Positions 51,835-64,000 of a stretch of 64,000 nucleotides of DNA are shown piece by piece. The notes below the pieces were generated by a model. The model was not told where the DNA came from and did not search any database. It worked only from the letters and a program-made list of their open reading frames with translations. Both the position numbers and the translations under genes were made by a program. The DNA is from a phage, in assembly GCA_017822615.1 (NCBI GenBank), contig GCA_017822615.1_4530.1; one strand, 5' to 3'. Numbering within the stretch: the first letter of the stretch is position 1; each line of letters begins with the position of its first letter.

Positions 51835-52173
51835 GACAATCTCCTCTCATCGTTAGCCATCTTTCATGGCAATCATCAATCACCAACATCATACGATCAA
51901 TCTTAAGGAATTACAATCGATTTATCATAGGGGATTCCTATCAATTATCCCATATATACCGATTATTTTTGACACCCCGCTCTTGTATAAAAAGTAACCC
52001 AAAATATCTACGGGGAGAGATTATTTCGGGACACCCTGTTTCATGGCAATCATGGCAAGAATATCTAATAGAATCAATATCATATGGCAAAAATCATGGC
52101 GCATACGTAAGAAGTGCTTAACGCGAATTTTCGGGCCGTCAGGTCCACGCAGCGACAATTCCCAAATATCATG

Positions 52174-52196
52174 CGAATGAGAATAATTATCATTCG
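52174..52196. promoter_or_regulatory. 23-bp near-perfect palindrome, Fur-box-like operator
   Basis: cgaatgagaataattatcattcg; resembles the GATAATGATAATCATTATC-type AT-rich dyad. Confidence 0.4.
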
Positions 52197-52353
52197 TATT
52201 CAATGACTTATGCAAGGCTCATGCCAACATAGCGACAAGGTGGGCCACCTGATTATAAATCACACAAACACTTATTTATCAATGGCTTGGCAACTTCATC
52301 ATATGACGGAACAATGTCAACTAATCCCGCTCATGACAGACGGACTATTATTT

Positions 52354-52374
52354 ATATGAGAATGATTATTATTT
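52354..52374. promoter_or_regulatory. iteron-like site (ATGAGAATGATT motif)
   Basis: atatgagaatgattattattt shares the ATGAGAATGATT core with the iterons at 63829-63944. Confidence 0.35.
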
Positions 52375-53089
52375 AAACGTTTATTAACATATAAACTAAA
52401 ATAAATCAAGAATTTTCTGATTTTATTTACGTTTAAGAGAACTTGCTCAACATATCGCTACGCGATAGTATTCGCCCCCAAAAGATTAGCCTTTATTTTC
52501 TTGTATGTTTATACACTATGTGCACACTATGCAACCTGTCGCTATTCGCTCATGTTGCTACGTGCAATTATTCATCTTGCTAATGATCTCATCTTGTAAT
52601 TACCACAATGATTATTGTTATTGCGCTAATGTTATGATCTTGGTAATTACATATAATGCTAATAATAAGCCAGCGCAATAAGTGTAAGCGTCATTACGCT
52701 TGCAATTATTGCAAGCTACGCAGTAACAAGAAATAACCGTCACCGATGGTTATGATTGTTGGGGTGTAGTTGGCTTATTATTAGCTCGCTATGTGTCCGG
52801 CATAGCGTGCTAATGATGACTCTGTGAATGATTCGTTTTGTAATGATTTCATTCATGCACTATTTTGCTAATAGTTATTATTTTAATGGTTTCGTTTGTT
52901 ATTGTTCGTTAGTTGGTTGTTTTGTCGTGTTATCGTTATCTTGCTTAGTATTCATCATGGTTTGATTGTTTGTCGTTATCAATCATCTTGCTATTATTCC
53001 TTTGATTATGATTAGTTTGCTTATTGTTTTAGGTTGTTGGTTAGTTAGTTGTTGCGAACTATTATCAACATTATAATTATGCGCTTATA

Positions 53090-53130
53090 TTGCATAGATA
53101 ATCATGGGTAGATGATAATGGTTATCATTG
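53090..53130 (+). promoter_or_regulatory. promoter-like element overlapped by a Fur-box-like site
   Basis: TTGCAT 53090-53095, about 17 nt, GATAAT; gatgataatggttatcattg 53111-53130 matches about 14/19 of the Fur consensus. Confidence 0.35.
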
Positions 53131-54383: not shown

Positions 54384-54384
54384 G

Positions 54385-54618: not shown

Positions 54619-54639
54619 GATATGACTCCTAAATCAGAT

Positions 54640-54695
54640 GGGAAACATTCCCGCCCTACGTGATAAATAATAATGTAAGCGTGATCCGGTGTCAA
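54640..54695 (-). promoter_or_regulatory. early promoter + 5' GC-hairpin cassette
   Basis: Reverse strand TTGACA (54690-54695), 17 nt, TATTAT (54667-54672), TAGGGCGG, hairpin gggaa-aca-ttccc 54640-54652. Confidence 0.6.
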
Positions 54696-55007
54696 TAGGT
54701 GGGATTGTAAAGATTTGATAGTTTATCTCTTTGATGTTTTGTTGTTTGATAGGTGTTAGCTATCAATATATAGCGGGGTCTTCCGGTGATTATCTTCCCC
54801 TGCTCCCAGGTGCCGCCCGTTCAATAAGTATAACAAAAAACAGGACTATTGCAAGCCCTGTTTATTTATCTTAAAACCAGTTGCCAACCGTTTCTAATAG
54901 GTCGCTGACTACCAGGACAACATTGATCAGCACATGTTCAACCATGAAGGGAATAAGCGCCAGCGTTGCTACTACGATCCCCATTGTGATGATTACCTTT
55001 CTCATGG

Positions 55008-55292
55008 TTAGCGGCTTACGTAAGCTTTACCGTTTACGGTCATCGGTATGGCCTCAAGGTCTGGATCTTCCTTAAGGTCGCGTGCAAGCTCACCGCACCG
55101 GATACCCTCGAATCCGTAGTACTCTGTTGTGCCATCCTGGAAAGTTTTAGCGGCAAGGCATAGGCGATAATTAACACCGATCCGGTTCACTGCGTTGATA
55201 TCGGTTAACGTGATGGATTCAGGCAACTCATTAGCCAGTACAGGCGCGTTAATACCAACAACCAGGGCAACTACTGCGATCATCTTTTTCAT
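55008..55292 (-). CDS. secreted early protein (signal peptide)
   Basis: MKKMIAVVALVVGINAPVLA signal-peptide-like N-terminus. Confidence 0.6.
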   Translation of the reverse strand: MKKMIAVVALVVGINAPVLANELPESITLTDINAVNRIGVNYRLCLAAKTFQDGTTEYYGFEGIRCGELARDLKEDPDLEAIPMTVNGKAYVSR

Positions 55293-55322
55293 GCTTTCTA
55301 GCCTCTTCCTATTGCGTTTAAT

Positions 55323-55338
55323 GGGGCGTTACCGCCCC
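55323..55338 (-). promoter_or_regulatory. intercistronic GC hairpin (no promoter)
   Basis: ggggcg-ttac-cgcccc between the stop at 55348 and the next RBS. Confidence 0.5.
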
Positions 55339-55347
55339 GCTTATGGT

Positions 55348-55584
55348 TTATTGATTGATGTTATAATGAAAGTTATTTTCTTCAATAGCTTTTAAAATAA
55401 AAGCTGTGATCGCTTTCGTGTCTACTTGTTCGAACGTATCAGAATAGCACCAATAATGATCATCCCCTACTTTCGGCGGGTAAACCTGGACAAGGAGATC
55501 GCCACCTGGTTGATCTATAAGCTCAACATGCAAGCCGGATGATTCAGCGGTTTTAACGGCGTTTAATACTGTTGCAATACTCAT
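55348..55584 (-). CDS. hypothetical early protein
   Basis: ORF track. Confidence 0.6.
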   Translation of the reverse strand: MSIATVLNAVKTAESSGLHVELIDQPGGDLLVQVYPPKVGDDHYWCYSDTFEQVDTKAITAFILKAIEENNFHYNINQ

Positions 55585-55604
55585 AATCTTTTCCTTTCTG
55601 ATGT

Positions 55605-55620
55605 GGGGCGTTGCCGCCCC
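55605..55620 (-). promoter_or_regulatory. intercistronic GC hairpin (no promoter)
   Basis: ggggcg-ttgc-cgcccc, 8 nt after the upstream stop and about 20 nt before the next RBS. Confidence 0.5.
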
Positions 55621-55628
55621 TTTGTTGA

Positions 55629-55928
55629 TTAGATCGCTGTTTCCAGTAGTTCGGCTAACGTCTTACCGCCTGATAGTTGGTCTAACGTTTGCTCTTCTGG
55701 CAAGAAATTAGCTGATATTAAACCGACTTGATTCCCTTTGTGCCAGTTAGCCTGGCGGATGATTCCATCCTTTAAAGATTTTACCGCCATTGTGCAACCG
55801 TCGCCAAATGATTCATTTTTATGATCCATTACTTCATAAGCGCCCAGCTTGCTGCTGTTAGGCACCATTAACGCGAATACATCACCAACAACCAGTTTTT
55901 CTACGGTAACAATAGCGATAGTTTCCAT
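55629..55928 (-). CDS. hypothetical early protein
   Basis: ORF track. Confidence 0.6.
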   Translation of the reverse strand: METIAIVTVEKLVVGDVFALMVPNSSKLGAYEVMDHKNESFGDGCTMAVKSLKDGIIRQANWHKGNQVGLISANFLPEEQTLDQLSGGKTLAELLETAI

Positions 55929-55947
55929 TTTACTTTCCTCATTATCG

Positions 55948-56003
55948 GCGGCACCATTGCCGCCCTACGTGGTAAATATTAGCACACTGGCGATCTGTGT
56001 CAA
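55948..56003 (-). promoter_or_regulatory. early promoter + 5' GC-hairpin cassette
   Basis: Reverse strand TTGACA (55998-56003); hairpin gcggca-ccat-tgccgc 55948-55963; 35-nt segment identical to 61609-61642. Confidence 0.6.
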
Positions 56004-56009
56004 TACTTT

Positions 56010-56396
56010 TTATTCAATATAAATCAAATTATCTTCACCAATGTAAGCCGACACGTCCGGCATGAATTTAGCGGCATTTGTTAGGCGGTTCGCCGTGTTA
56101 GTGGTGTATATTTCAGGGCGATCCCAAAAGCCTACGCCGTGACTGTTACGGGTAAAATGTAAATCATTCCCGATCTGGTTGGCTGTTGCGCCGTCGCTCA
56201 TTGCCTCAGAGATAGCGGCAAGATTAGCATTAATAAAGGCTGTTACATCCTGGGCGATCCGTTGATCCGCGCTAGGAGAAAAATCATAATCGTCTAAGTT
56301 ATCAATAAAATTACCTTCATGATCCCTTGCTGATTCAGCAAAAATAAAGGCTTCTTTATAGCCGTTGATGATTTCGTTAATGATTTCTGTTTTCAT
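56010..56396 (-). CDS. hypothetical early protein
   Basis: ORF track. Confidence 0.6.
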   Translation of the reverse strand: MKTEIINEIINGYKEAFIFAESARDHEGNFIDNLDDYDFSPSADQRIAQDVTAFINANLAAISEAMSDGATANQIGNDLHFTRNSHGVGFWDRPEIYTTNTANRLTNAAKFMPDVSAYIGEDNLIYIE

Positions 56397-56608
56397 GCTG
56401 TACGCTCGACAATAATAATAGTTTGCGGGATCTCGTTTTCTACTACTAACAAGGCTTTTTTCTGTGTGATAGATATTTTAACACGTTGTAAAGTAGCGGT
56501 GAAATCTTTCATTTCATTATGCGCGGACTTCGTGCAATGCCAGATCTCAGGCTTACCAACTTGTAAGCCGCGTAAAAATTCCGTTTTGCCTGTTTTGTTC
56601 GTGATCAT
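56393..56608 (-). CDS. hypothetical early protein
   Basis: ATG at 56608 after aaggtga; track GTG start 56617. Confidence 0.55.
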   Translation of the reverse strand: MITNKTGKTEFLRGLQVGKPEIWHCTKSAHNEMKDFTATLQRVKISITQKKALLVVENEIPQTIIIVERTA

Positions 56609-56618
56609 TTGTTTCACC

Positions 56619-56723
56619 TTAACCGATACCGTGGGAAGATAGGATCATGTTAGCCATAGTTGCAACCACTCCAACCGATAACGCCAGGCCCACTATTACA
56701 ACCGTGAAAATTTTCTCTAACAT
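56619..56723 (-). CDS. small membrane peptide (34 aa)
   Basis: Reverse-strand ATG after gagggtag; hydrophobic MLEKIFTVVIVGLALSVGVVA; not in track. Confidence 0.4.
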   Translation of the reverse strand: MLEKIFTVVIVGLALSVGVVATMANMILSSHGIG

Positions 56724-56741
56724 GATTCTACCCTCATTAAT

Positions 56742-56803
56742 GGGCGTTGCACCATTGCCCCGCCCTACGAAATACATTCTATCAGATAACAAATTATCGT
56801 CAA
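56742..56803 (-). promoter_or_regulatory. early promoter + 5' GC-hairpin cassette
   Basis: Reverse strand TTGACG (56798-56803), 16 nt, TAGAAT (56776-56781), TAGGGCGG, hairpin region 56742-56765. Confidence 0.55.
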
Positions 56804-56946
56804 GATTTATTTTTTACTTCCCAAACGGAAAATTCACTGCCTATCGGGATCATTCTTTTAATCTTGTTTGCTGCTGCTACCAGATCCACGGCTTGCACTG
56901 TAATAATATAACCAATTGTCGGGGCTGTTGCGTTGAAAGTTTTCAT
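56800..56946 (-). CDS. small hypothetical protein (48 aa)
   Basis: Reverse-strand ATG after aaggataat; stop overlaps the next -35; not in track. Confidence 0.4.
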   Translation of the reverse strand: MKTFNATAPTIGYIITVQAVDLVAAANKIKRMIPIGSEFSVWEVKNKS

Positions 56947-56990
56947 TATATTATCCTTTAATACAGGCGGGATTAATCCCGCCTTATTAA

Positions 56991-57161
56991 TTACTCTTCA
57001 TCGTCGCCGTTATAGTATTCAATGCCGTTTTCATCGGTTACAGTGATGTTAACGCCACCGATAGCGACACGATCACGGGCAAACGTCATAGCTTCATTTA
57101 AATCTTCGGACCAAAAAATATTGTGACCTTTGCGCGATACATAAAACATAGTCGGGGTCAT
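56991..57161 (-). CDS. hypothetical early protein
   Basis: ATG at 57161 (MTPTMFYV...); track TTG start 57245 lies inside the promoter. Confidence 0.55.
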   Translation of the reverse strand: MTPTMFYVSRKGHNIFWSEDLNEAMTFARDRVAIGGVNITVTDENGIEYYNGDDEE

Positions 57162-57184
57162 GATTTGTTTCTCTTCTGTTTTGA

Positions 57185-57245
57185 GCGGTGGACCATTCCG
57201 CCGCCCTATGTGATAAACTTTACTACGTTGTTTGCCTACTGTCAA
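57185..57245 (-). promoter_or_regulatory. early promoter + 5' GC-hairpin cassette
   Basis: Reverse strand TTGACA (57240-57245), 17 nt, TAAAGT (57217-57222), TAGGGCGG, hairpin 57185-57204 with one mismatch. Confidence 0.6.
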
Positions 57246-57246
57246 A

Positions 57247-57531
57247 TTATTTTTTAATGTTTTGCCCTACAAAATTGATCACTTCCTTAAGCTGTTTCTC
57301 TGTCATGATCGTACCTGGTAATTCCTCTTTAATTTCTTCCGGTAAATAAATATTACCGCGCCAGGTTAACAAACAACCGTTTTGATCTTCGCAGATAGAA
57401 TAAGAGAAGATCCACTCATTATCATTTTCAAGCTCCCAAAAACACAAAAAGTCTTCTTTCCCTAAGTTTTCAACGGTTAAGCATAATCCGCGACGTGCTG
57501 CATAATTAGTTAGGCTTTTTGTGATTTTCAT
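57247..57531 (-). CDS. hypothetical early protein
   Basis: ORF track. Confidence 0.6.
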   Translation of the reverse strand: MKITKSLTNYAARRGLCLTVENLGKEDFLCFWELENDNEWIFSYSICEDQNGCLLTWRGNIYLPEEIKEELPGTIMTEKQLKEVINFVGQNIKK

Positions 57532-57552
57532 GATTTTTCTCTCTTCTTGTGA

Positions 57553-57607
57553 GCGGCATCATTGCCGCCCTACGCAATAACTATAACACAATATAAAACC
57601 GGATCAA
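57553..57607 (-). promoter_or_regulatory. early promoter + 5' GC-hairpin cassette
   Basis: Reverse strand TTGATC (57602-57607), 16 nt, TATAGT (57580-57585), hairpin gcggca-tcat-tgccgc 57553-57568. Confidence 0.6.
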
Positions 57608-57816
57608 CCTTTATTTTTCCACGGTGTCAGCTTGTTAATCATTGGTGATAAATAACGTTTACCAACGTAAAACAGTACGCCAACTGATGCAACGGCGGCG
57701 ATCTCATGTAAGGAGGAAGGCCGCGCGGTGTCATAATAGGTACCAATAATAGCAATAGCGGCGACGGCGGTGATGTCAATAATGATTTTTTCTTGTTTTG
57801 CTGTGATAGTGGTCAT
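57604..57816 (-). CDS. small membrane protein
   Basis: Hydrophobic ITAVAAIAIIGTYY and AAVASVGVLFYV. Confidence 0.55.
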   Translation of the reverse strand: MTTITAKQEKIIIDITAVAAIAIIGTYYDTARPSSLHEIAAVASVGVLFYVGKRYLSPMINKLTPWKNKG

Positions 57817-57838
57817 AATGTTTTCTCTTCTGTGTGGT

Positions 57839-57894
57839 CGGGAACTATTCCCGCCCTATGTGATACATCTTAGTAAATCTGGTTATAATGTCAA
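57839..57894 (-). promoter_or_regulatory. early promoter + 5' GC-hairpin cassette
   Basis: Reverse strand TTGACA (57889-57894), 16 nt, TAAGAT (57867-57872), hairpin cgggaa-cta-ttcccg 57839-57853. Confidence 0.65.
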
Positions 57895-57900
57895 CCATTT

Positions 57901-58086
57901 TTAAAGATATTTTATACTGATAACATTTTCAGGTTTTACCTTATTATGCTGTGCATCTATATAGATTAAACCATCCTCAGAAAAGCCCAGGATCACGCCC
58001 TGCGCAATAAAACCGTATTGGTCACGGTAACGCACGGCTATTTTTAATGTTGCATTGTAGGCTGTTTTAAGCTCATTTAAAGTCAT
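57901..58086 (-). CDS. hypothetical early protein
   Basis: ORF track; RBS gaggataaa on reverse strand. Confidence 0.55.
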   Translation of the reverse strand: MTLNELKTAYNATLKIAVRYRDQYGFIAQGVILGFSEDGLIYIDAQHNKVKPENVISIKYL

Positions 58087-58105
58087 TTGTGTTTATCCTC
58101 TAGAT

Positions 58106-58136
58106 ATAAAAAGAAAGGGCGCTTGATGCGCCCTTG
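58106..58136 (-). terminator. rho-independent terminator (aagggcgc family)
   Basis: aagggcgc-ttgat-gcgccctt; reverse strand followed by tttcttttta. Confidence 0.65.
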
Positions 58137-58141
58137 TTATG

Positions 58142-58287
58142 TTAATCCTCTAAATCCATCCAATTATATTTATCACTCTTCCCGCGCTTTGTTTTATTGC
58201 GTTTATCACCTTTGCGGATCACTTCTTCATTCCATGCCTTGCGGATCTTGGAAGATTGAATTTTTTCTGCGCGATTAGATGTATTCA
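58142..58287 (-). CDS. small basic early protein
   Basis: ATG at 58287 (MNTSNRAEK...) after aagaggaaac; track start 58327 lies inside the hairpin element. Confidence 0.5.
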
Positions 58288-58308
58288 TTTTGTTTCCTCT
58301 TTGTATGA

Positions 58309-58361
58309 GCGGCATCATTGCCGCCATGTGGTTAATCTAAACTATTTTGTAAAATTGTCAA
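58309..58361 (-). promoter_or_regulatory. early promoter + 5' GC-hairpin cassette
   Basis: Reverse strand TTGACA (58356-58361), 16 nt, TAGATT (58334-58339), hairpin gcggca-tcat-tgccgc 58309-58324. Confidence 0.6.
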
Positions 58362-58367
58362 GGTTTA

Positions 58368-58721
58368 TCATTCATAAGAGCAAGCAAGGATCACGCCTGC
58401 AATATAAAGCCAATAATTTTCCCTTTCTCGTTGGATTTTATCATCGTTGCTATTCTCTTTAATGTATCCCCAGGATGTTAACAAGCGATCAATTTCCCAA
58501 TATTCGAAAGCGATATTGATATCTGATGGCAAACCTTGTAACCATGATGCAAGTGCTTTAACAATACTATAATTAAAACGTGATTGGTTATCAGGGTACC
58601 AGTACTCGGAATTAAAACGGCGCATCAATTCCGCGATCTTCTCTTTTTCGGTTGTAATACCGTAATCATTAAAATCGATAGCGGCAAGTATGTACTCTTT
58701 AATTGCATTTTGTGCTTTCAT
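58368..58721 (-). CDS. hypothetical early protein
   Basis: ORF track. Confidence 0.6.
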   Translation of the reverse strand: MKAQNAIKEYILAAIDFNDYGITTEKEKIAELMRRFNSEYWYPDNQSRFNYSIVKALASWLQGLPSDINIAFEYWEIDRLLTSWGYIKENSNDDKIQRERENYWLYIAGVILACSYE

Positions 58722-58740
58722 GGTCTTTCTCTCTTTTTGA

Positions 58741-58797
58741 GCGGGAACTATTCCCGCCCTACGTGTAACAGTTTACTAAAAATTAAATCGGTGTCAA
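58741..58797 (-). promoter_or_regulatory. early promoter + 5' GC-hairpin cassette
   Basis: Reverse strand TTGACA (58792-58797), 16 nt, TAAACT (58770-58775), hairpin gcgggaa-cta-ttcccgc 58741-58757. Confidence 0.65.
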
Positions 58798-58800
58798 GCT

Positions 58801-59022
58801 TTATTTTGTTACTACCATTTGGTACCCTGTTTCAATGTTAGTAAATACTGTTATTCCGTCCTGGCGTTCACTCATTAGCATACAAGGCGCTAACATCCTT
58901 TCTACTGCCTTGCACTCATTGTAAACGGCGGTTATGTCTCCTGCGGCCTTGTCTTCTGTGGTGAATGTATCGTTTATGTAAACCTGACCAGCGACAACGG
59001 CGACAATAGCGAAAGTGATCAT
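58801..59022 (-). CDS. hypothetical early protein (MITFA N-terminus)
   Basis: ORF track; first 15 nt of the CDS identical to 59097..59264. Confidence 0.55.
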   Translation of the reverse strand: MITFAIVAVVAGQVYINDTFTTEDKAAGDITAVYNECKAVERMLAPCMLMSERQDGITVFTNIETGYQMVVTK

Positions 59023-59055
59023 GATGTTTCCTTGTTAGTAGTGGTTTCTCTTCTC

Positions 59056-59093
59056 TATAGCGCCCATTATAAGGCGCTATAACGAAAAGTCAA
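59056..59093 (-). promoter_or_regulatory. promoter with palindrome spanning the -10
   Basis: Reverse strand TTGACT (59088-59093), 16 nt, TATAAT (59066-59071) inside inverted repeat tatagcgcc...ggcgctata 59056-59081. Confidence 0.5.
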
Positions 59094-59096
59094 CGA

Positions 59097-59264
59097 TTAT
59101 TTTTTAAGGCTTAAAGTACCTAACTTGTCAGCATGACGCAGACCAGGGAAGATCCATTTTCCTGATTCATCTTTTACAGGGGCTTTAAGCGTAGCGCCCA
59201 GGTTGGCGGCGTTAACTTTACGGGCAACGTTGCGAGCGGCTTCACGGGTAGCGAAAGTGATCAT
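59097..59264 (-). CDS. small early protein (55 aa, MITFA N-terminus)
   Basis: Reverse-strand ATG with the same initiation region as 58801..59022; not in track. Confidence 0.45.
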   Translation of the reverse strand: MITFATREAARNVARKVNAANLGATLKAPVKDESGKWIFPGLRHADKLGTLSLKK

Positions 59265-59288
59265 GATGTTTTCCTCTTCTCTTTGTTA

Positions 59289-59350
59289 GGCGGTGGACCA
59301 TTCCGCCGCCTTGATGTAATACAGTTTACTTTATTTTATTAAGATTGCAA
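59289..59350 (-). promoter_or_regulatory. early promoter + 5' GC-hairpin cassette
   Basis: Reverse strand TTGCAA (59345-59350), 16 nt, TAAACT (59323-59328), hairpin ggcggtgga-cca-ttccgccgcc 59289-59310. Confidence 0.55.
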
Positions 59351-59356
59351 GCGGTT

Positions 59357-59572
59357 TTATGAAATAATTGTCAAAGTAAAATCATAAGACTGATTTAATT
59401 TATATTGTACTTTATTGCCGTAGTAGTCACCTTTACGTAAAGATCCTCGAATACCTATTACATCCTTAACGTCTTTTAAATTTTTCACGCCTGTAATGTC
59501 TTTATTGAAATACTCGTCATCTGAAAATAAAACTTGACTTGCATTTTTTAACAGTGTGCGGATATTAGCCAT
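59357..59572 (-). CDS. hypothetical early protein
   Basis: ATG at 59572 (MANIRTLL...); track start 59620 lies inside the hairpin element. Confidence 0.5.
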   Translation of the reverse strand: MANIRTLLKNASQVLFSDDEYFNKDITGVKNLKDVKDVIGIRGSLRKGDYYGNKVQYKLNQSYDFTLTIIS

Positions 59573-59595
59573 TTTGATAATCCCTCTTACTATGA

Positions 59596-59651
59596 GCGGC
59601 ACTATTGCCGCCCTATGCATTACATTTTACTGATTTTAGTTATCTTGTCAA
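59596..59651 (-). promoter_or_regulatory. early promoter + 5' GC-hairpin cassette
   Basis: Reverse strand TTGACA (59646-59651), 16 nt, TAAAAT (59624-59629), hairpin gcggca-ctat-tgccgc 59596-59611. Confidence 0.65.
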
Positions 59652-59658
59652 TATTATT

Positions 59659-59886
59659 TTAGTTTAATTCATCCAGGCATAACAGGCGATCAACGTTGAG
59701 ATCGGTTAGGCTGATGGTCGGCACCTGGTAGGATTCGATGTACTCGACGCTTGCATATTCTCCAAAATTAGCAATAGCCCACTTATTCAAGATCTCACAT
59801 ACATCATTAATCTTTTTGTTTGTTACAACTGCTACAACCTGGGAATAGCCAACGGTGCCGGATACGCGAACAATATTGATAGCCAT
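59659..59886 (-). CDS. hypothetical early protein
   Basis: ORF track. Confidence 0.6.
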   Translation of the reverse strand: MAINIVRVSGTVGYSQVVAVVTNKKINDVCEILNKWAIANFGEYASVEYIESYQVPTISLTDLNVDRLLCLDELN

Positions 59887-59909
59887 AATCTTTAATCTCT
59901 CTGTTGTGA

Positions 59910-59968
59910 GCGGGAAACCATTTCCCGCCCTATGTGATACATCTTACACTAATTTTAAACGTTGTCAA
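59910..59968 (-). promoter_or_regulatory. early promoter + 5' GC-hairpin cassette
   Basis: Reverse strand TTGACA (59963-59968), 16 nt, TAAGAT (59941-59946), hairpin gcgggaaa-cca-tttcccgc 59910-59928. Confidence 0.65.
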
Positions 59969-59977
59969 CTGTTTTTA

Positions 59978-60217
59978 TTACATTCCAACCATCGCGGCAC
60001 GGATTGCAGTTTTACTATACTTGAAACCGTCTGGAGTTTTATCTTGTCCAGTTTGTTCCAGGAATAACATCATATCACGGGCAGCATCATTACGATTAGT
60101 ATTAGCGGCGATAAATTCTTTCGCCAACCGATATAATGATTCGTCGTTATTAATCCAAAGGCTTACATTCCAATGAGTTTTATTTTTGTGACCTAAGAAC
60201 ATTTTTGATTTAGCCAT
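59978..60217 (-). CDS. hypothetical early protein
   Basis: ORF track. Confidence 0.6.
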   Translation of the reverse strand: MAKSKMFLGHKNKTHWNVSLWINNDESLYRLAKEFIAANTNRNDAARDMMLFLEQTGQDKTPDGFKYSKTAIRAAMVGM

Positions 60218-60241
60218 GATGTTAATCTCTTTTTCAGTGAG

Positions 60242-60300
60242 GCGGGAAGTGTTCCCGCTCTCTATGTAATACAGTTTACTCTTTTTATTCGTGCTGTCAA
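60242..60300 (-). promoter_or_regulatory. early promoter + 5' GC-hairpin cassette
   Basis: Reverse strand TTGACA (60295-60300), 16 nt, TAAACT (60273-60278), hairpin gcgggaa-gtg-ttcccgc 60242-60258. Confidence 0.65.
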
Positions 60301-60306
60301 TGCTTT

Positions 60307-60672
60307 TTATAAATCTTTTTTACGTTTAACATCGCTTGCATGACTGTATACAGTGATCCCATTGTCACGGCAAAAACGGGAAAGATACGCGCCGCGTGAA
60401 AACTCTTTACCTTCCATATTAATAACCTTGCTAAATTCTTCCAGGGCGACGGTATCAAAATGATCACCATAACCATATTGAAACGGAACGTTAACCACCT
60501 CGATCAGTTTACCGCCGATCTCAACGTCAACCATTAAAGAAAAATATGTGTTACCGTAGGACTGTTGAAACCAACGACGGGCGCTAATATGCACCGCCTC
60601 AATGCTGGATAATTCAATTTTAGCCGTGTCAGCCAGGGTAGCATAAGAGGAAACATTGATATTAATAGCCAT
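60307..60672 (-). CDS. hypothetical early protein
   Basis: ORF track. Confidence 0.6.
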   Translation of the reverse strand: MAININVSSYATLADTAKIELSSIEAVHISARRWFQQSYGNTYFSLMVDVEIGGKLIEVVNVPFQYGYGDHFDTVALEEFSKVINMEGKEFSRGAYLSRFCRDNGITVYSHASDVKRKKDL

Positions 60673-60698
60673 GATATTACTCTCTTTTTTTGGTTAGT

Positions 60699-60750
60699 GG
60701 GAAGTATTCCCGATAAAAGTTATTATGCTTATACTATCACTCATTGTCAA
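60699..60750 (-). promoter_or_regulatory. early promoter + 5' GC-hairpin cassette (short hairpin)
   Basis: Reverse strand TTGACA (60745-60750); hairpin gggaa-gta-ttccc 60699-60711. Confidence 0.55.
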
Positions 60751-60769
60751 TAGTATAAGATTAAAACTT

Positions 60770-60949
60770 TTAACGATAATCGTTATAGGCTTTATTGACC
60801 TGGCGAATGTAACATTCGAAAGCAAGATCAATGTATTCGTATTCACGCACATAATCACCATAGGTCACTACATACATTTTTAAAGTTTCCTCATAAGCCA
60901 GGAGGATCGAATCTAAACCTATAATCTCAGTTTTTGCAATGATAGTCAT
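60770..60949 (-). CDS. small early protein (59 aa)
   Basis: Reverse-strand ATG; fills the gap between cassettes; not in track. Confidence 0.45.
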   Translation of the reverse strand: MTIIAKTEIIGLDSILLAYEETLKMYVVTYGDYVREYEYIDLAFECYIRQVNKAYNDYR

Positions 60950-60970
60950 GATGTTAACCTTTTATTGTTG

Positions 60971-61026
60971 GCGGCACCATTGCCGCCCTACGTGATAAAC
61001 TACACCAGAATTTTAAACAGTGTCAA
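60971..61026 (-). promoter_or_regulatory. early promoter + 5' GC-hairpin cassette
   Basis: Reverse strand TTGACA (61021-61026); hairpin gcggca-ccat-tgccgc 60971-60986, then TAGGGCGG. Confidence 0.6.
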
Positions 61027-61031
61027 CCGTT

Positions 61032-61394
61032 TTATTCGTAAATTTTACCGCTTTCGGCCCATACCATAACGCGGCGCATACTATCCCAAGTGTTCTGATC
61101 CAGGTTTAAGCCGTGCAACTCTTCGGTACTTCCCAGACCAGGTACCGCCTTGTTGTAAGTAGCATATAAGCGCCCTTGATACTCATACGCCAGGATGAGA
61201 TCCGTTTGAATCATCTTTTTAAGCATAGCATTAAGCATCATGTTAGCGGCATGTTGATCACGTTTTAGCGGTAACATGTCAATAAGGGCGCGATAAGCTG
61301 AAACATGAATATCAACCGTTTCACGTGGTAAATTTTTCATATCATCGCGGAAGGATACCAGGTTTAACATGATAGTATTGATTTGCTTGCTCAT
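61032..61394 (-). CDS. hypothetical early protein
   Basis: ORF track. Confidence 0.6.
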   Translation of the reverse strand: MSKQINTIMLNLVSFRDDMKNLPRETVDIHVSAYRALIDMLPLKRDQHAANMMLNAMLKKMIQTDLILAYEYQGRLYATYNKAVPGLGSTEELHGLNLDQNTWDSMRRVMVWAESGKIYE

Positions 61395-61416
61395 TGTGTT
61401 ACCCTTTTTTGTTTTG

Positions 61417-61476
61417 GCGGGGAAGTATTCCGCCGCCCTATGTGATACATCTTATCAGATTAAAAAACGTTGTCAA
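61417..61476 (-). promoter_or_regulatory. early promoter + 5' GC-hairpin cassette
   Basis: Reverse strand TTGACA (61471-61476), 16 nt, TAAGAT (61449-61454); imperfect hairpin 61417-61436. Confidence 0.6.
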
Positions 61477-61484
61477 GAATATTT

Positions 61485-61580
61485 TTAGAAAATAATAGCC
61501 GCTACTACAATCCAAAATGGAACGGCTAGAATGATAGCGTTAATCGTTCCAACCGTCAAGCTATTTTCTTTATTAATCAT
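61485..61580 (-). CDS. small membrane peptide (31 aa)
   Basis: Reverse-strand ATG; hydrophobic GTINAIILAVPFWIVVAAIIF; not in track. Confidence 0.35.
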   Translation of the reverse strand: MINKENSLTVGTINAIILAVPFWIVVAAIIF

Positions 61581-61609
61581 TGTAAGCCTCTTGCATAATT
61601 TCACTATGA

Positions 61610-61666
61610 GCGGCACCATTGCCGCCCTACGTGGTAAATATTATGCCAGTGGCGGCGATATGTCAA
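61610..61666 (-). promoter_or_regulatory. early promoter + 5' GC-hairpin cassette
   Basis: Reverse strand TTGACA (61661-61666), 17 nt, TAATAT (61638-61643), hairpin gcggca-ccat-tgccgc 61610-61625. Confidence 0.65.
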
Positions 61667-62220
61667 AGACTATTTTCAAAGTTTTCTAGTGCGATCCTTT
61701 TTTCTTCCTCTGTCGGCTGATAATCAGGAAAAGCATCAACACACAACAACGGCGGGATCTCTTCGTACTCTTCCTCTTCCGTTGTCTCCTCGTCTTCCTC
61801 CTGGGCTATGGCTGCAATTTTGGCTAATTTTCTTTCAGCTTGAATCAATTTACCATCAAGTACGTTTTTTGCCATGTTGTAAGCGGTCCAGGTGATGCGC
61901 TTACTTTCCAGGGCCTGATCGAGCGCCGCTATCTTGCTGGGGTATTCATCCAGGACACGAAAAGCCGGATCAACTTTGTACAAAGGATTATCTTTCGCGC
62001 CGTCGCTCGCATCTTCCGCACTGGATAAATCAGCGTTACCATTTGCCAGCCAGCCAGGGCGCACATAACGCGCTTTTACGTTGCCGTTACTACGTGCTAA
62101 TCTGTTACCTATTTGCTCACCGCTATATCCCGTGGATTCATCGATAAGATGATCGGGAATGATGCGCGGATCATCTGCTTCATGTTTTACCCAAGACTGG
62201 ATCACATATTCGCGGCCCAT
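61663..62220 (-). CDS. hypothetical early protein with acidic C-terminus
   Basis: ATG at 62220 (MGREYV...); track GTG start 62229 overlaps the upstream gene. Confidence 0.6.
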   Translation of the reverse strand: MGREYVIQSWVKHEADDPRIIPDHLIDESTGYSGEQIGNRLARSNGNVKARYVRPGWLANGNADLSSAEDASDGAKDNPLYKVDPAFRVLDEYPSKIAALDQALESKRITWTAYNMAKNVLDGKLIQAERKLAKIAAIAQEEDEETTEEEEYEEIPPLLCVDAFPDYQPTEEEKRIALENFENSL

Positions 62221-62221
62221 A

Positions 62222-62479
62222 TTAACCACCTTTTTTCAACAATTGGCATACTTTAAAAAGACTTGCTGAATCCTTGCAAGGGTAGAAAGATGTACGATAA
62301 TCACGTACGCCAACCTTGCGGATCTCGATGTTCTCGCATGTTGTTTGATCAAAGATATTTATTTCATCACGCCCCCTTATATAAACATAGTGGGGATGTA
62401 TTAACGCATATTTTGCTAATCTGTAAAAAGCGTTATCTTTGAACGCGATCACGTGACCTTTTAATTTGATGTAAAACAT
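62222..62479 (-). CDS. hypothetical early protein
   Basis: ORF track. Confidence 0.6.
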   Translation of the reverse strand: MFYIKLKGHVIAFKDNAFYRLAKYALIHPHYVYIRGRDEINIFDQTTCENIEIRKVGVRDYRTSFYPCKDSASLFKVCQLLKKGG

Positions 62480-62497
62480 TCTACCACCTTACAAATA

Positions 62498-62552
62498 GCG
62501 GGAACTATTCCCGCTTTATGTAACATATTAACAAATTATTCGTTAATGTCAA
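62498..62552 (-). promoter_or_regulatory. early promoter + 5' GC-hairpin cassette
   Basis: Reverse strand TTGACA (62547-62552), 16 nt, TAATAT (62525-62530), hairpin gcgggaa-cta-ttcccgc 62498-62514. Confidence 0.65.
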
Positions 62553-62555
62553 GCC

Positions 62556-62828
62556 TTAAAGCAAAAACGCTACATCTTGCGCTTTTAGTGTAGTATCAAC
62601 CATTTTCGGGCTTTTATAATCAACAAAGCGCGCGGTTTTTTCAATAGCGAAACCGAGATAATCTTGCTTGTTGAAATTACATTCTTTCTTAAATGTTTCC
62701 CGTGCAATAGCGATCGCTGCGTCCAGGGATAAACGCCCGTCAATATTGATATTAGCGAAAGATCCGCCACCGCTCATAGGTTTACCAGTTGTGCCAGCTA
62801 CGATCATTGTTGCGCTATATGATGCCAT
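62556..62828 (-). CDS. hypothetical early protein
   Basis: ORF track. Confidence 0.6.
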   Translation of the reverse strand: MASYSATMIVAGTTGKPMSGGGSFANINIDGRLSLDAAIAIARETFKKECNFNKQDYLGFAIEKTARFVDYKSPKMVDTTLKAQDVAFLL

Positions 62829-62853
62829 GATGATAATCTCTCTTCTGTTACGA

Positions 62854-62912
62854 GCGGGAAACCACTTCCCGCCCTATGTGATACATCTTATCAGGTTGTT
62901 GTTTGTTGTCAA
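62854..62912 (-). promoter_or_regulatory. early promoter + 5' GC-hairpin cassette
   Basis: Reverse strand TTGACA (62907-62912), 16 nt, TAAGAT (62885-62890), hairpin gcgggaa-accac-ttcccgc 62854-62872. Confidence 0.65.
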
Positions 62913-62918
62913 TAGTTT

Positions 62919-63117
62919 TTATTCTATTCCTGCGATTTGATTAACGCGCTTGCATTTTGTAGCGTGCTGGTCTTCTGTAATGACTCCCATTTCTAACAGG
63001 GAATCAATGAAAGATAAAACCGTTTCATGATCATCCTGGGGGTGACTGAACTCAGTAAAACCGTTTACCACTACGTTGATTTGTCCAGCTTTCGCCACAA
63101 TGTGCAATGTTGCCATG
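62919..63117 (-). CDS. hypothetical early protein
   Basis: ATG at 63117 (MATLHIV...); track TTG start 63194 lies inside the promoter -35. Confidence 0.55.
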
Positions 63118-63302: not shown

Positions 63303-63569
63303 ATGACAAATACTACATTACACCTTATGCACTCATTGGGCTGGCAAGGCGGCACGGTGCACCAGGTAGCAAGCGCAACGGGCTTAAAGGTTGAAACCGT
63401 TCTCAACCTGGGCGATCATAAGGTGGAAGAGATAGATCATTTTGATACGTTCGCAAATGGTTATCTATGGGCTTGCAGTGGCGGCGGGGAAAGCAAGATA
63501 CCACCAGGGGCGCGGGGCGATATGTATTTTTGGTTAGGTGTCCTATCCTGGCAAGAAAACAAAAAATAA
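63303..63569 (+). CDS. hypothetical protein
   Basis: ORF track; RBS aagggcg; only plus-strand gene in this segment. Confidence 0.5.
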   Translation: MTNTTLHLMHSLGWQGGTVHQVASATGLKVETVLNLGDHKVEEIDHFDTFANGYLWACSGGGESKIPPGARGDMYFWLGVLSWQENKK

Positions 63570-63571
63570 TC

Positions 63572-63600
63572 TTGACAAGCCCAGGGATCGGGCTTATACT
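63572..63600 (+). promoter_or_regulatory. sigma70-type promoter with palindromic spacer
   Basis: TTGACA 63572-63577, 17-nt spacer agcccagggatcgggct (dyad agccc/gggct), TATACT 63595-63600. Confidence 0.5.
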
Positions 63601-63828
63601 GTTTTACATACAGAAGAGGAAGCGCCACCCCACGGCGTAAAGGCGGGGCTAACATACCAGGGGGCACTGGTTGGAAGGTTGATCGCCGGTAGGCTGGGTG
63701 CTATATATTTGTAAAGAAATGCAAAGATAAAATAATCGCTTGCTTTCCTGGCTGGATCTGTTATTCTTATTACATGGCGAGGGGACACGGGAGCGCGAGA
63801 CAAACACCGCCCCTGCGCGTCATTCTCT

Positions 63829-63944
63829 AAATGAGAATGATTGTCATTTACCTTATTAAATAAGAATCAATCTCATTTATAAACTTAAATGCGAATCATT
63901 ATCATTTGCATTTCCATATGAGAACTCTTCTCATTTTCACCTGC
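63829..63944. repeat. four tandem 29-bp iterons, each an imperfect dyad (ATGAGAA...TTCTCAT)
   Basis: Repeat units start at 63829, 63858, 63887, 63916 with consensus aAtgaGAAtcatTcTCATTT; followed by AT-rich tract 63945-64000. Confidence 0.6.
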
Positions 63945-64000
63945 ATAAAAATTTTTGTAAACTTTAAATTTTGCTTTTGTACTTTCATTTTTGTAAAAGC

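What the first reader, a model, noticed from the sequence alone, without database searches (positions are those of the whole stretch)
63829..64000. Four 29-bp iterons next to an AT-rich tract: candidate replication origin
Four direct repeats at exactly 29-bp spacing (starts 63829, 63858, 63887, 63916), each an imperfect dyad around ATGAGAA...TTCTCAT, are followed by an AT-rich stretch. This is the classic iteron-plus-unwinding-element layout of lambda-type and plasmid origins. Related single sites occur in the hub at 52174-52196, 52354-52374 and 53111-53130. The repeats also resemble the AT-rich Fur-box dyad, so host Fur or another repressor is an alternative. The window ends inside the AT-rich tract, so the element may continue.
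Basis: partly seen in the sequence, partly recalled or inferred. Interest (0 to 1): 0.7.

Follow-up and report, generated by a model that had tools for sequence, protein, structure and literature searches.

The report
Fur-box array in a phage genome
The four evenly spaced repeats are near-consensus binding sites for Fur, the host bacterium's iron-sensing repressor, in a conserved non-coding control region of a large E. coli phage, and not replication-origin iterons; the same sites turn out to be the unexplained repeats at phage T5's injection-stop region.

Summary
Four imperfect 21-bp dyads (consensus AAATGAGAATnATTCTCATTT) start at 63829, 63858, 63887 and 63916, exactly 29 bp apart. They are followed by a 23% G+C tract that runs about 180 bp past the window end.

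The window comes from a phAPEC8-like myovirus (Phapecoctavirus). The dyads are Fur boxes by sequence. A matrix built only from phage dyads recovers the classical E. coli Fur operators (fecI, ryhB, fhuA, cirA, fecA, entC, fepA-fes, fepD-entS) as 9 of its top 11 hits in 194 kb of K-12.

The dyads are conserved across Stephanstirmvirinae and Vequintavirinae in variable number (1-5) and spacing (17-34 bp). The first always follows a conserved promoter and small structured RNA. Genus-specific 63-79-bp direct repeats lie to their right.

The same boxes occur in the probable terminal repeat (52176, 52355). In unrelated T5 they coincide with the annotated "direct repeat C" copies and palindromes E, G and I at the injection-stop region.

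The iteron/origin reading is not supported: the sites match a host consensus, there is a single copy in some genera, and I found no initiator, DnaA boxes or skew switch. What Fur binding achieves here remains inferred.

The parts
63829..63849 (.). Dyad 1, AAATGAGAATGATTGTCATTT, a Fur-box-class site. It is the only copy conserved in every genus, always 8-9 nt after the RNA2 closing stem. Its left half can also pair with the upstream flank CATTCTC as an RNA hairpin.
   Evidence: E. coli-derived Fur matrix score 21.3 bits. Conserved position in 12 sequences. Hairpin.
63858..63878 (.). Dyad 2, AAATAAGAATCAATCTCATTT, a Fur-box-class site.
   Evidence: Score 17.1 bits.
63887..63912 (.). Dyad 3, AAATGCGAATCATTATCATTT, plus a second site overlapping it with a 6-bp shift (AATCATTATCATTTGCATT). 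It shares a 31-nt identical stretch with T5-like phages.
   Evidence: Scores 20.8 and 15.8 bits. 31-nt 100% match, hit H50. Same sequence in pork27.
63916..63936 (.). Dyad 4, ATATGAGAACTCTTCTCATTT, the weakest Fur-class site.
   Evidence: Score 12.8 bits.
63937..64000 (.). Start of the AT-rich tract (23% G+C). It continues about 180 bp beyond the window and holds 2-3 copies of a direct repeat of up to 72 nt built around AAACTTTAAAT...TTTTGTAAA. The equivalent repeats in other genera are 63-79 bp and differ in sequence.
63572..63600 (+). Promoter P1 (TTGACA-17-TATACT, 11 of 12 matches). The hexamers are conserved across genera while the spacer sequences differ.
63607..63702 (+). Conserved GC-rich candidate structured RNA, 'RNA1'. 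It has a CGCC/GGCG hairpin, a variable hairpin with AU-to-GC covariation, and a possible CCCC/GGGG pseudoknot that becomes CCAA/TTGG in Henunavirus. No Rfam family matches.
63740..63767 (+). Promoter P2 (TTGCTT-16-TATTCT). Other genera have TTGACC-17-GATACT, TTGATC-17-TATTAT or TTGCAA-17-TATATT. It is preceded by two TGTAAAGA-like boxes.
63774..63827 (+). Conserved candidate small RNA, 'RNA2', with a closing stem AUGGCG/CGUCAU and a conserved loop GAGACAAACACC. G.U pairs fit the + strand only. It ends at dyad 1.
   Evidence: MFE -27.3 kcal/mol, z = -2.6.
63303..63569 (+). ORF88, the only + strand gene of the module. It is conserved in this phage group and its function is unknown.
52176..52200 (.). 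Hub Fur-class site (AATGAGAATAATTATCATT) with a second site overlapping at a 6-bp shift. It lies about 56 bp inside the inferred physical left end of the genome.
52355..52373 (.). Hub Fur-class site inside the inferred direct terminal repeat.
53111..53129 (.). Hub Fur-class site overlapping the -10 of a + strand promoter-like TTGCAT-18-GATAAT. The arrangement is conserved in BME3.
52120..52448 (.). Inferred direct terminal repeat. Its left edge aligns with base 1 of BME3 (termini defined by PhageTerm) and with the start of the Mt1B1_P17 record. Its right edge aligns with the end of the 3A1_SA_NWU record.
   Evidence: This is inferred from record boundaries and was not measured for this phage.

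Best explanation
The four repeats are operator-type binding sites for the host ferric uptake regulator Fur (Fe2+-Fur dimers). They are not iterons for a phage initiator. They form the variable-copy part of a conserved, roughly 1.2-kb non-coding module about 11.7 kb inside the left genome end. The module sits on the + strand between blocks of - strand genes. Its order is: ORF88; sigma-70 promoter P1; structured RNA1; promoter P2; small RNA2; Fur boxes (1-5 copies); three genus-specific AT-rich direct repeats; and a bidirectional terminator.

The most likely mechanism is as follows. In iron-replete cells Fe2+-Fur occupies the array. It begins on the weak terminator hairpin at the 3' end of RNA2, formed by the upstream flank and the left half of dyad 1. 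Bound Fur then acts as a protein roadblock or occluder, confining rightward P1/P2 transcription to the small RNAs and keeping it out of the AT-rich repeats. When iron is scarce Fur leaves and transcription reads into the repeats. Iron status would thus gate whatever the repeats do.

Shown: the sites belong to the Fur-box class, they are conserved and placed as described, and the half-sites drift independently. Inferred: Fur binds them in vivo, acts as a roadblock, and produces this downstream effect.
For: (1) A matrix built from 20 phage dyads was scanned over 194 kb of E. coli K-12. Nine of its top 11 hits fall in ten classical Fur-regulated intergenic regions, which make up 1.2% of the sequence: fecI 24.2 bits, ryhB 23.2, fhuA 20.8, cirA, fecA, entC, fepA-fes, fepD-entS and fepB-entC. 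That these are Fur operators is established knowledge.
(2) A Gibbs-sampled matrix from those E. coli regions alone gives the canonical consensus AATGATAATCATTATCATT. It ranks 52176, 63830, 63888, 52355, 53111 and 63859 as the top six of the 64-kb window. Six sites score at least 17.1 bits, against 0.06 expected from shuffles.
(3) The window dyads score 12.8-21.3 bits, against 8.4-20.7 (leave-one-out) for the E. coli operators. They match the classical 19-mer at 12-15 of 19 positions.
(4) Overlapping sites shifted by 6 bp, typical of Fur operators, occur at 63888/63894 and 52176/52182.
(5) Half-site deviations are one-sided in 40 cases and compensatory in 2. This fits protein half-sites, not hairpins.
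(6) The same consensus is kept across genera infecting Escherichia, Salmonella, Klebsiella, Cronobacter, Erwinia and Pectobacterium, while the neighbouring AT-rich repeats change from genus to genus. That pattern is expected if the dyads bind a conserved host factor and the repeats bind a co-evolving phage factor.
(7) The same boxes occur in unrelated T5-like phages and in at least 120 stretches of other viral contigs. The T5 DNA-binding protein A2 has no detectable homolog in the window, and the listed A2 hits in the phage collection are all ~108-117-kb records.
(8) Dyad 1 keeps a fixed distance from P2/RNA2 in 12 sequences. In phage naswa the whole unit of promoter, RNA2-like element and Fur box is duplicated.
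(9) Site 53111 overlaps a conserved -10 in the classic repressor arrangement.
Against: No binding experiment exists. The array dyads do not overlap a convincing conserved promoter, so they are not arranged like a standard Fur operator. The preferred half-site is TGAGAAT, not the textbook TGATAAT, although E. coli fecI, ryhB, fhuA and feoA sites carry the same variant. The 29-bp period is about 2.8 helical turns and is unexplained. Spacing varies between 17 and 34 bp in relatives, so the period is not essential. Roadblock termination by Fur is not an established mechanism. Promoters P1 and P2 and RNA1 and RNA2 are predictions, with only modest covariation support. The presence of sites inside the terminal repeat and at the T5 first-step-transfer boundary suggests a role in handling DNA (entry, packaging or replication), not a purely transcriptional one.
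Confidence: 0.6

Rival explanations
1. One reading: the four repeats are iterons bound by a phage initiator and, with the adjacent AT-rich unwinding element, form a lambda- or plasmid-type replication origin.
For: There are four evenly spaced repeats next to a 23% G+C tract. Lambda iterons are also dyads (from memory). The tract holds further direct repeats. Promoters point into it, as at transcription-activated origins.
Against: The repeat matches the host Fur consensus, not a phage-specific sequence. It is identical in consensus across genera and in unrelated T5-like phages. Only one copy is present in Seunavirus and Henunavirus. No initiator-like gene lies nearby: ORF88 has no Pfam match or PDB fold match, and the neighbours are a NADAR protein and an HNH/CapR endonuclease. 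There are no DnaA boxes. GC skew is negative on both sides of the locus, with only a local positive blip over the + strand module. Related sites occur singly in the terminal repeat.
Confidence: 0.08
2. The dyads bind a phage-encoded regulator whose specificity happens to resemble that of Fur, with sites and protein exchanged horizontally between phage groups.
For: The phage consensus (TGAGAAT half-site, flanking AAA/TTT) is sharper than, and slightly different from, the E. coli average. A 31-nt identical stretch is shared between a Phapecoctavirus and T5-like phages, which could reflect horizontal transfer. Many small early genes have unknown function.
Against: The motif occurs in very different viral contigs of 4 to 120 kb and equals the host regulon's operators, so a shared host factor is more parsimonious. 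T5 A1 and A2 have no homolog in the 70 kb examined, and the listed A2 hits are all ~108-117-kb records. In T5 the sites lie on DNA that enters before any phage protein is made (T5 biology; Davison preprint).
Confidence: 0.1
3. Fur does bind, but the array works as a decoy. As the genome is copied, its ten or so strong sites titrate Fur and derepress the host iron-uptake and iron-sparing regulon, supplying iron for phage ribonucleotide reductases.
For: The sites score as high as or higher than the best chromosomal operators. They are clustered away from promoters. BME3 has about 11 strong sites in its left 13.5 kb, plus those in the second terminal repeat copy. From memory: a single Fur box on a multicopy plasmid derepresses chromosomal Fur targets (the FURTA assay), and cells hold only a few thousand Fur molecules.
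Against: T5 carries the same arrays but degrades host DNA within minutes, so derepressing host genes cannot be the shared function. The fixed position of dyad 1 relative to P2/RNA2 and the sites at genome ends point to a cis role.
Confidence: 0.1
4. The dyads act at the RNA level, as tandem weak hairpin terminators or processing sites for the rightward P1/P2 transcripts, and their resemblance to Fur boxes is coincidental.
For: Each dyad can form a 7-9-bp AU-rich hairpin ending in UUU. A terminator-like hairpin overlaps dyad 1. RNA2 needs a 3' end.
Against: Half-site changes are not compensatory: 40 are one-sided, 2 compensatory, and only 3 remain G.U-pairable. The stems are AU-rich and lack proper U-tracts in Vequintavirinae. 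The same sequence recurs inside the inferred terminal repeat, away from the RNA2 unit. The two-way matrix match to Fur operators is far beyond chance.
Confidence: 0.04

Closest known systems
Enterobacterial Fur operators (19-bp Fur box GATAATGATAATCATTATC, or 7-1-7 TGATAATnATTATCA; multi-site operators such as iucA, fepA-fes and fepB-entC)
   Same: The palindromic consensus is the same. The scores are the same or better with a matrix derived only from E. coli operators. Overlapping sites shifted by 6 bp are present. The phage matrix recovers the E. coli Fur regulon.
   Different: The host is a virulent phage. The array lies in a non-coding module with no iron gene. The four sites are discrete and 29 bp apart, whereas chromosomal operators have contiguous overlapping hexamers across a promoter. 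There is no convincing overlap with a core promoter. The half-site prefers TGAGAAT.
Phage T5 'Repeat Region 3' or injection-stop-signal region: direct repeat C copies 1-4 and palindromes E, G and I (annotation of AY587007; Davison bioRxiv 10.1101/866236)
   Same: The dyad is the same. The T5 sites at 9473, 9577 and 9612 score 18.9-23.7 bits with the E. coli Fur matrix and coincide with the annotated DRC copies and palindromes. In both phages the array sits in a large untranslated region, is followed by other direct repeats, and lies about 8% of the genome length from the left end.
   Different: T5 is an unrelated siphovirus. Its array lies inside a 10-kb terminal repeat, next to DnaA boxes and the 7.9% nick. 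The myovirus has only an approximately 0.33-kb terminal repeat, no DnaA boxes, and promoter-plus-small-RNA units in their place. No two-step DNA transfer is known for it. The T5 papers read here do not mention Fur.
Lambda-type and plasmid iteron origins (four dyad-symmetric O-protein sites plus an AT-rich region; from memory)
   Same: Four regularly spaced dyads of about 20 bp lie next to an AT-rich tract, with transcription directed towards it.
   Different: Iterons are specific to their own initiator and lie in or beside its gene. Here the sequence is a host consensus, it is shared with unrelated phages, its copy number falls to 1, and no initiator gene is nearby.
Upstream Fur-site clusters that act by displacing H-NS (E. 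coli ftnA; from memory)
   Same: A cluster of Fur sites lies outside the core promoter, beside very AT-rich, probably curved DNA that would attract H-NS.
   Different: No evidence here bears on H-NS. This is offered only as a possible way in which Fur at the array could open or close the AT-rich repeats.

Membership tests
Fur box / Fur operator | A 19-21-bp AT-rich palindrome matching GATAATGATAATCATTATC (7-1-7 TGATAATnATTATCA) | tested here: met
   The dyad consensus is AAATGAGAATnATTCTCATTT, with core TGAGAATnATTCTCA. The sites match the classical 19-mer at 12-15 of 19 positions.
Fur box / Fur operator | Recognised by a matrix built from known operators, at scores comparable to real sites and above chance | tested here: met
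   With the de novo E. coli matrix the window dyads score 21.3, 17.1, 20.8 and 12.8 bits, against 8.4-20.7 for E. coli sites (leave-one-out). Six window sites score at least 17.1 bits, against 0.06 in shuffles.
Fur box / Fur operator | Reciprocity: the candidate sites' own matrix finds the known regulon | tested here: met
   Nine of the top 11 hits in 194 kb of K-12 fall in known Fur-regulated intergenic regions.
Fur box / Fur operator | Overlapping sites at 6-bp register (hexamer array) | tested here: met
   Pairs at 63888/63894 and 52176/52182. The same occurs in T5 and BME3.
Fur box / Fur operator | Overlap with the -35/-10 or transcription start of a regulated promoter | tested here: inconclusive
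   Site 53111 overlaps a conserved -10. The four array dyads overlap only weak, non-conserved promoter-like matches. Fur boxes resemble -10 hexamers in any case.
Fur box / Fur operator | Metal-dependent binding of Fur protein (EMSA, footprint or ChIP) | not testable with these tools
   No experimental data were found for these phages (literature searches).
Iteron-type replication origin | An array of repeats specific to a cognate initiator and co-varying with it between relatives | tested here: not met
   The consensus is the same in all genera, in T5-like phages and in host operators. The neighbouring 63-79-bp repeats, not the dyads, vary by genus.
Iteron-type replication origin | Several iterons retained in all members | tested here: not met
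   There is one copy in GEC_vB_MG, the L142 contig (length 145,964 bp), Csp-D17 and pEp_SNUABM_01. Others have 2-5 copies.
Iteron-type replication origin | An adjacent AT-rich unwinding element | tested here: met
   G+C is 23% over L001 6540-6780.
Iteron-type replication origin | An initiator gene at or near the iterons | tested here: not met
   [not shown]
Iteron-type replication origin | Host-factor sites typical of origins (DnaA boxes) and a skew inflection | tested here: not met
   There is no TTWTNCACA in the module or the hub. GC skew is negative on both sides of the locus. Skew in phages mainly follows transcription, so this is weak evidence.
Iteron-type replication origin | Replication initiates here | not testable with these tools
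   This needs marker-frequency or replication-intermediate mapping.
T5-type injection-stop (iss) region | A large untranslated repeat region at about 8% of the genome from the end that enters first, containing the DRC-type dyads | tested here: met
   Dyad positions are 11.88-11.99 kb of 147.4 kb in BME3 (8.1%), 9.15-9.67 kb of 120.6 kb in pork27 (7.6-8.0%) and 9.47-9.64 kb of 121.8 kb in T5. The untranslated gap is about 1.26 kb. Which end of the myovirus genome enters first is unknown.
T5-type injection-stop (iss) region | Paired DnaA boxes in the IRD'-spacer-IRC' element, DRD repeats, A1/A2 genes and a long terminal repeat | tested here: not met
   There are no DnaA boxes and no A1 or A2 homolog in the 70 kb examined. 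The terminal repeat in the relative BME3 is about 0.34 kb.
T5-type injection-stop (iss) region | Two-step DNA transfer pausing at this site | not testable with these tools
   No data exist for rV5- or phAPEC8-like phages.

The most novel reading that the evidence does not exclude
Fur-box arrays may be a shared, previously unrecognised landmark of the left-terminal early segment, about 8% of the genome, in two unrelated groups of virulent enterobacterial phages. In T5 they coincide with the DRC repeats and palindromes at the injection-stop signal, beside the first-step-transfer shear point and the 7.9% nick. In phAPEC8/rV5-like myoviruses they mark both the terminal repeat (about 55 bp from the DNA tip) and a boundary module at about 8%. 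On this reading host Fur, alongside DnaA in T5, is a missing host factor that holds, pauses or organises incoming or packaged phage DNA. It would make DNA entry, or the switch from early to later functions, depend on iron. The myoviruses would then have an element analogous to the T5 iss.
Probability: 0.1. Interest if true: 0.9.

Novelty: new variant of a known kind. Interest (0 to 1): 0.6.

Why it matters
Fur operators are textbook elements of bacterial iron genes. Arrays of consensus-strength Fur boxes in the non-coding control regions and terminal repeats of virulent phages have not, as far as my searches of the held library show, been described.

If Fur binds them, these phages read the host's iron state directly. 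That is sensible for viruses whose ribonucleotide reductases need iron and, for T5-like phages, whose receptors are themselves Fur-controlled. It would also show how a lytic programme can be tied to host physiology.

The result also gives a concrete, cheap-to-test candidate for a question open since the 1980s: what recognises the repeats of the T5 injection-stop region. A 2023 paper on the T5 relative BF23 states that experimental studies of the function of these sites are lacking.

In practical terms, iron availability could affect the efficacy of the phAPEC8/rV5-like and T5-like phages used in phage therapy and biocontrol.

Tried and rejected
- Tandem Repeats Finder found nothing; the copies are too diverged.
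- Rfam at E <= 1 found nothing in the module. In the hub it gave only a chance snoRNA hit. ARAGORN found no tRNA or tmRNA.
- Megablast against E. coli genomes gave no match, so this is not a prophage or a chromosomal element.
- The classical 19-mer consensus at up to 3 mismatches gave 0 hits. That test is too strict, so matrices were used in its place.
- The 15-mer CGCGAGACAAACACC scanned over viral contigs returned 48 loci, but only 5 were true homologs. A 15-mer is too short for a collection of that size.
- Promoter scans cannot tell which dyads overlap real promoters, because Fur boxes resemble -10 hexamers.
- T5 A1 and A2 were considered as a shared binding protein. There is no homolog in the window plus L001, and the listed A2 hits in the phage collection are all ~108-117-kb records.
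- A 34-codon ORF with a strong ribosome-binding site after site 53111 is not conserved in BME3, so I do not propose it as a gene.
- Literature searches linking Fur to T5-like or lytic phages, and for an origin or transcriptome in this subfamily, found nothing relevant.
- GC and AT skew show no switch at the locus.

Full report
**What the window is.** The last 600 bases of the window are 99.8% identical to several Phapecoctavirus genomes (phAPEC8-like myoviruses of about 150 kb, subfamily Stephanstirmvirinae). They have no match in E. coli genomes. I used phage AV125 as a proxy to read past the window end. In locus L001, L001 position equals window position minus 57399.

**The observation.** The four repeats are real. 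They start at 63829, 63858, 63887 and 63916 with spacings of 29, 29 and 29 bp, and each is an imperfect dyad. Their consensus is the 21-bp palindrome AAATGAGAATnATTCTCATTT. Searching its 19-bp core at up to 3 mismatches gives 6 hits in 64 kb against 0.11 expected. These are the array plus 52176 and 52355.

The AT-rich tract continues beyond the window to about L001 6780 at 23% G+C. The repeats sit in a 1.26-kb gap (L001 5717-6979) between genes on the - strand. CDS calls over this gap disagree between records. The stretch also differs between relatives by indels and by repeat number, so it is non-coding.

**What the repeats are.** The core TGAGAATnATTCTCA differs from the Fur 7-1-7 motif TGATAATnATTATCA by one base per half-site. 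I tested the resemblance in both directions.

- *Phage matrix on E. coli.* I built a matrix from 20 non-redundant dyads of this myovirus family only. I scanned it over 194 kb of E. coli K-12 taken around iron loci. Its best hits were the promoters of fecI, ryhB and fhuA, followed by cirA, fecA, entC, fepA-fes, fepD-entS and fepB-entC. Nine of the top 11 hits fall in ten Fur-regulated intergenic regions that make up 1.2% of the sequence.
- *E. coli matrix on the phage.* I ran a Gibbs sampler on those ten E. coli regions alone, with no phage input. It converged on AATGATAATCATTATCATT, the canonical Fur box. Scanned over the window, this matrix ranks 52176, 63830, 63888, 52355, 53111 and 63859 as the top six and 63917 eleventh. 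Six sites score at least 17.1 bits, against 0.06 in shuffles.

The phage dyads score as well as the best chromosomal operators: 12.8-21.3 bits, against 8.4-20.7 leave-one-out. Overlapping sites shifted by 6 bp, typical of Fur operators, are present at 63888/63894 and 52176/52182. Deviations from the consensus are one-sided in 40 cases and compensatory in only 2. The symmetry is therefore that of protein half-sites and not of an RNA hairpin.

**Conservation and context.** I compared relatives from eight genera: Phapecoctavirus, Justusliebigvirus, Vequintavirus, Seunavirus, Henunavirus, Certrevirus, Mydovirus and an unclassified Klebsiella phage. All share one module, read on the + strand:

1. 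A small + strand gene, ORF88, in the Stephanstirmvirinae records where it is annotated or aligned.
2. A strong sigma-70 promoter, P1 (TTGACA-17-TATACT at 63572-63600).
3. A conserved GC-rich element, RNA1.
4. Two TGTAAAGA boxes.
5. A second promoter, P2, whose hexamers are conserved while its spacer varies.
6. A short conserved element, RNA2, with a closing stem and a conserved loop GAGACAAACACC.
7. The Fur-class dyads.
8. An AT-rich tract with three genus-specific direct repeats of 63-79 bp.
9. A bidirectional terminator that ends the upstream - strand NADAR gene.

Vequintavirus naswa differs: it lacks RNA1 and carries two tandem units of promoter, RNA2-like element and Fur box.

The number of dyads ranges from 1 (a perfect palindrome in Seunavirus and Henunavirus) to 5, and the spacing from 17 to 34 bp. 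A spacing of 29 bp is common but not fixed. Dyad 1 always lies 8-9 nt after RNA2.

Consensus folding gives modest support for RNA1 and RNA2. There is AU-to-GC covariation in one RNA1 hairpin. RNA2's closing stem has G.U pairs that fit the + strand only. In the window, RNA2 folds at -27.3 kcal/mol (z = -2.6). A terminal hairpin forms between the flank CATTCTC and the left half of dyad 1. Neither RNA matches Rfam.

**The iteron/origin reading.** This reading fails several defining tests.

- The repeat sequence is not specific to the phage lineage.
- It falls to one copy in some genera.
- No initiator-like gene is nearby. ORF88 has no family, and its confident model has no structural match.
- There are no DnaA boxes.
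- GC skew is negative on both sides of the locus.

The adjacent AT-rich tract exists, and its genus-specific repeats look more like iterons than the dyads do. An origin, or another cis-acting DNA function, in the wider module therefore remains possible. If so, the dyads would be its Fur-dependent gate and not its initiator sites.

**Unexpected links.**

- *T5-like phages.* blastn of the array hit T5-like siphoviruses. In T5 itself (AY587007) the E. coli Fur matrix finds strong sites in the first 11 kb only at 9473-9497, 9577-9601 and 9612-9636. The maximum, 23.7 bits, exceeds every E. coli training site. These positions coincide with the annotated direct repeat C copies 1, 3 and 4 and palindromes E, G and I. 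They lie just left of the 7.9% nick, within the injection-stop region. Davison's analysis puts the calculated first-step-transfer shear point at 9618 and names no factor for these repeats. Neither that preprint nor the 2023 and 2026 T5/BF23 papers mention Fur.
- *Genome ends.* Several GenBank records of this genus begin or end inside the hub. BME3, a relative with PhageTerm-defined 342-bp terminal repeats, starts at the base homologous to window 52120. Its Fur-class sites lie 53 and 248 bp from the tip, at about 1.2 kb, and then not again until the five-dyad array at 11.88-11.99 kb, which is 8.1% of the genome. In the window phage, sites 52176 and 52355 therefore probably lie in the terminal repeat, and the array lies about 11.7 kb inside the left end.
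- *Other viral contigs.* The perfect palindrome occurs in at least 120 stretches of other viral contigs. Some are arrays with periods of 29, 17 or 23+6 bp. Among 32 whole contigs the palindrome is enriched near contig ends: 3 lie within 50 bp of an end, against 0.43 expected. Assembly breaks at repeats could contribute to this.

**Mechanism.** The shown facts are the Fur-box class, the conservation and the placement. My best inference is that Fe2+-Fur occupies the array and blocks rightward P1/P2 transcription just after RNA2, so that iron limitation allows transcription into the AT-rich repeats. I consider the following rivals less likely, for the reasons listed under each in the rivals section:

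- A phage-encoded protein with Fur-like specificity.
- A Fur decoy, which is unlikely to be the shared role because T5 destroys host DNA.
- RNA hairpins.
- True iterons.

The positions at the genome tip and at about 8% in both phage groups suggest a role in handling DNA. I cannot test that here, so I give it as the most novel reading that my evidence does not exclude.

**Verdict.** I class the feature as a new variant of a known kind: Fur operators in an unusual host and arrangement. It also offers a testable lead on the T5 injection-stop region.

Noticed in passing
window 63572-63827 (+ strand): There are two consecutive conserved candidate small RNAs, each behind its own sigma-70 promoter, antisense to the flanking gene direction. 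RNA1 is about 95 nt with a possible CCCC/GGGG pseudoknot that becomes CCAA/TTGG in Henunavirus. RNA2 is about 55-75 nt with the conserved loop GAGACAAACACC. Neither matches Rfam.
   Followed up: partly
L001 6549-6760 (equivalent to window 63948-64159, mostly beyond the window end); L007 1761-1981; L010 1686-1894; L188 1328-1520: The AT-rich tract holds about three direct repeats of 63-79 bp whose sequence differs between genera (AAACTTTAAAT type, AAAAAATTTTTTCG...CGATCGAG type and others). These look more like true iterons or phage-protein sites than the dyads do.
   Followed up: partly
window 52120-52448: This is the probable physical genome end and a direct terminal repeat of about 330 bp. 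BME3 (termini defined by PhageTerm) and the Mt1B1_P17 record start at the base homologous to 52120, and other records end at 52214 or 52448. The window therefore spans a joined-ends junction. Fur-class sites lie about 56 and 235 bp from the tip.
   Followed up: partly
window 53090-53365 (+ strand): A Fur-class site (53111-53129) overlaps the -10 of TTGCAT-18-GATAAT, and the arrangement is conserved in BME3. About 230 nt downstream is a bidirectional terminator (53342-53364). This is a candidate Fur-repressed small transcript. The 34-codon ORF with a strong ribosome-binding site at 53152 is not conserved in BME3.
   Followed up: partly
L193 (T5 AY587007) 9473-9636; L192 (pork27) 9151-9671; L003 (phiR2-01) 1362-1585: The annotated 'direct repeat C' copies and palindromes E, G and I of the T5 injection-stop region are consensus-strength Fur boxes (up to 23.7 bits). 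They lie beside the DnaA boxes, the calculated first-step-transfer shear point (9618) and the 7.9% nick. The T5 papers I read do not mention Fur.
   Followed up: yes
L024 6851-6956; L070 2556-2642; L078 138-226; L039 5200-5259 (IMG/VR contigs): Unrelated viral contigs carry arrays of near-perfect copies of the same dyad with periods of 29, 17 or 23+6 bp. Several lie at contig ends. In one 43.7-kb contig the perfect palindrome lies near both ends (L078 and L079), with a multi-site array at the L078 end.
   Followed up: partly
L187 (phage naswa) 1000-1300: Vequintavirus naswa has two tandem units of promoter, RNA2-like element and Fur box, which suggests that this trio is a functional cassette.
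   Followed up: no
L017 5940 (upstream of oppA) and L016 3861 (between yeiS and preT) in E. coli K-12: The phage-derived matrix gives strong hits (19.3 and 18.3 bits) at two K-12 intergenic sites that I cannot assign to the known Fur regulon from memory.
   Followed up: no
[not shown]
   Followed up: yes
L001 6195-6404, 6486-6680; L005 1263-1604: Different GenBank records annotate different, mutually inconsistent 'hypothetical protein' CDSs across the RNA1/RNA2, dyad and AT-rich stretch. These are probably false gene calls.
   Followed up: partly
window 53400-63100 (- strand) and L191 1483-11354: The roughly 10 kb between the terminal hub and the array is packed with about 25 small - strand genes of unknown function, probably early genes. 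Short sequences of about 40-110 bp from BME3 match several places in this block (window 57.5, 59.9, 61.4 and 62.85 kb), possibly repeated promoter or terminator units.
   Followed up: no
(hit tables): Near-identical or clearly related genomes are deposited as Pseudomonas, Acinetobacter and Campylobacter phages (PsgM04F, ABPW7, A145). These host labels look doubtful for what are enterobacterial phage lineages.
   Followed up: no
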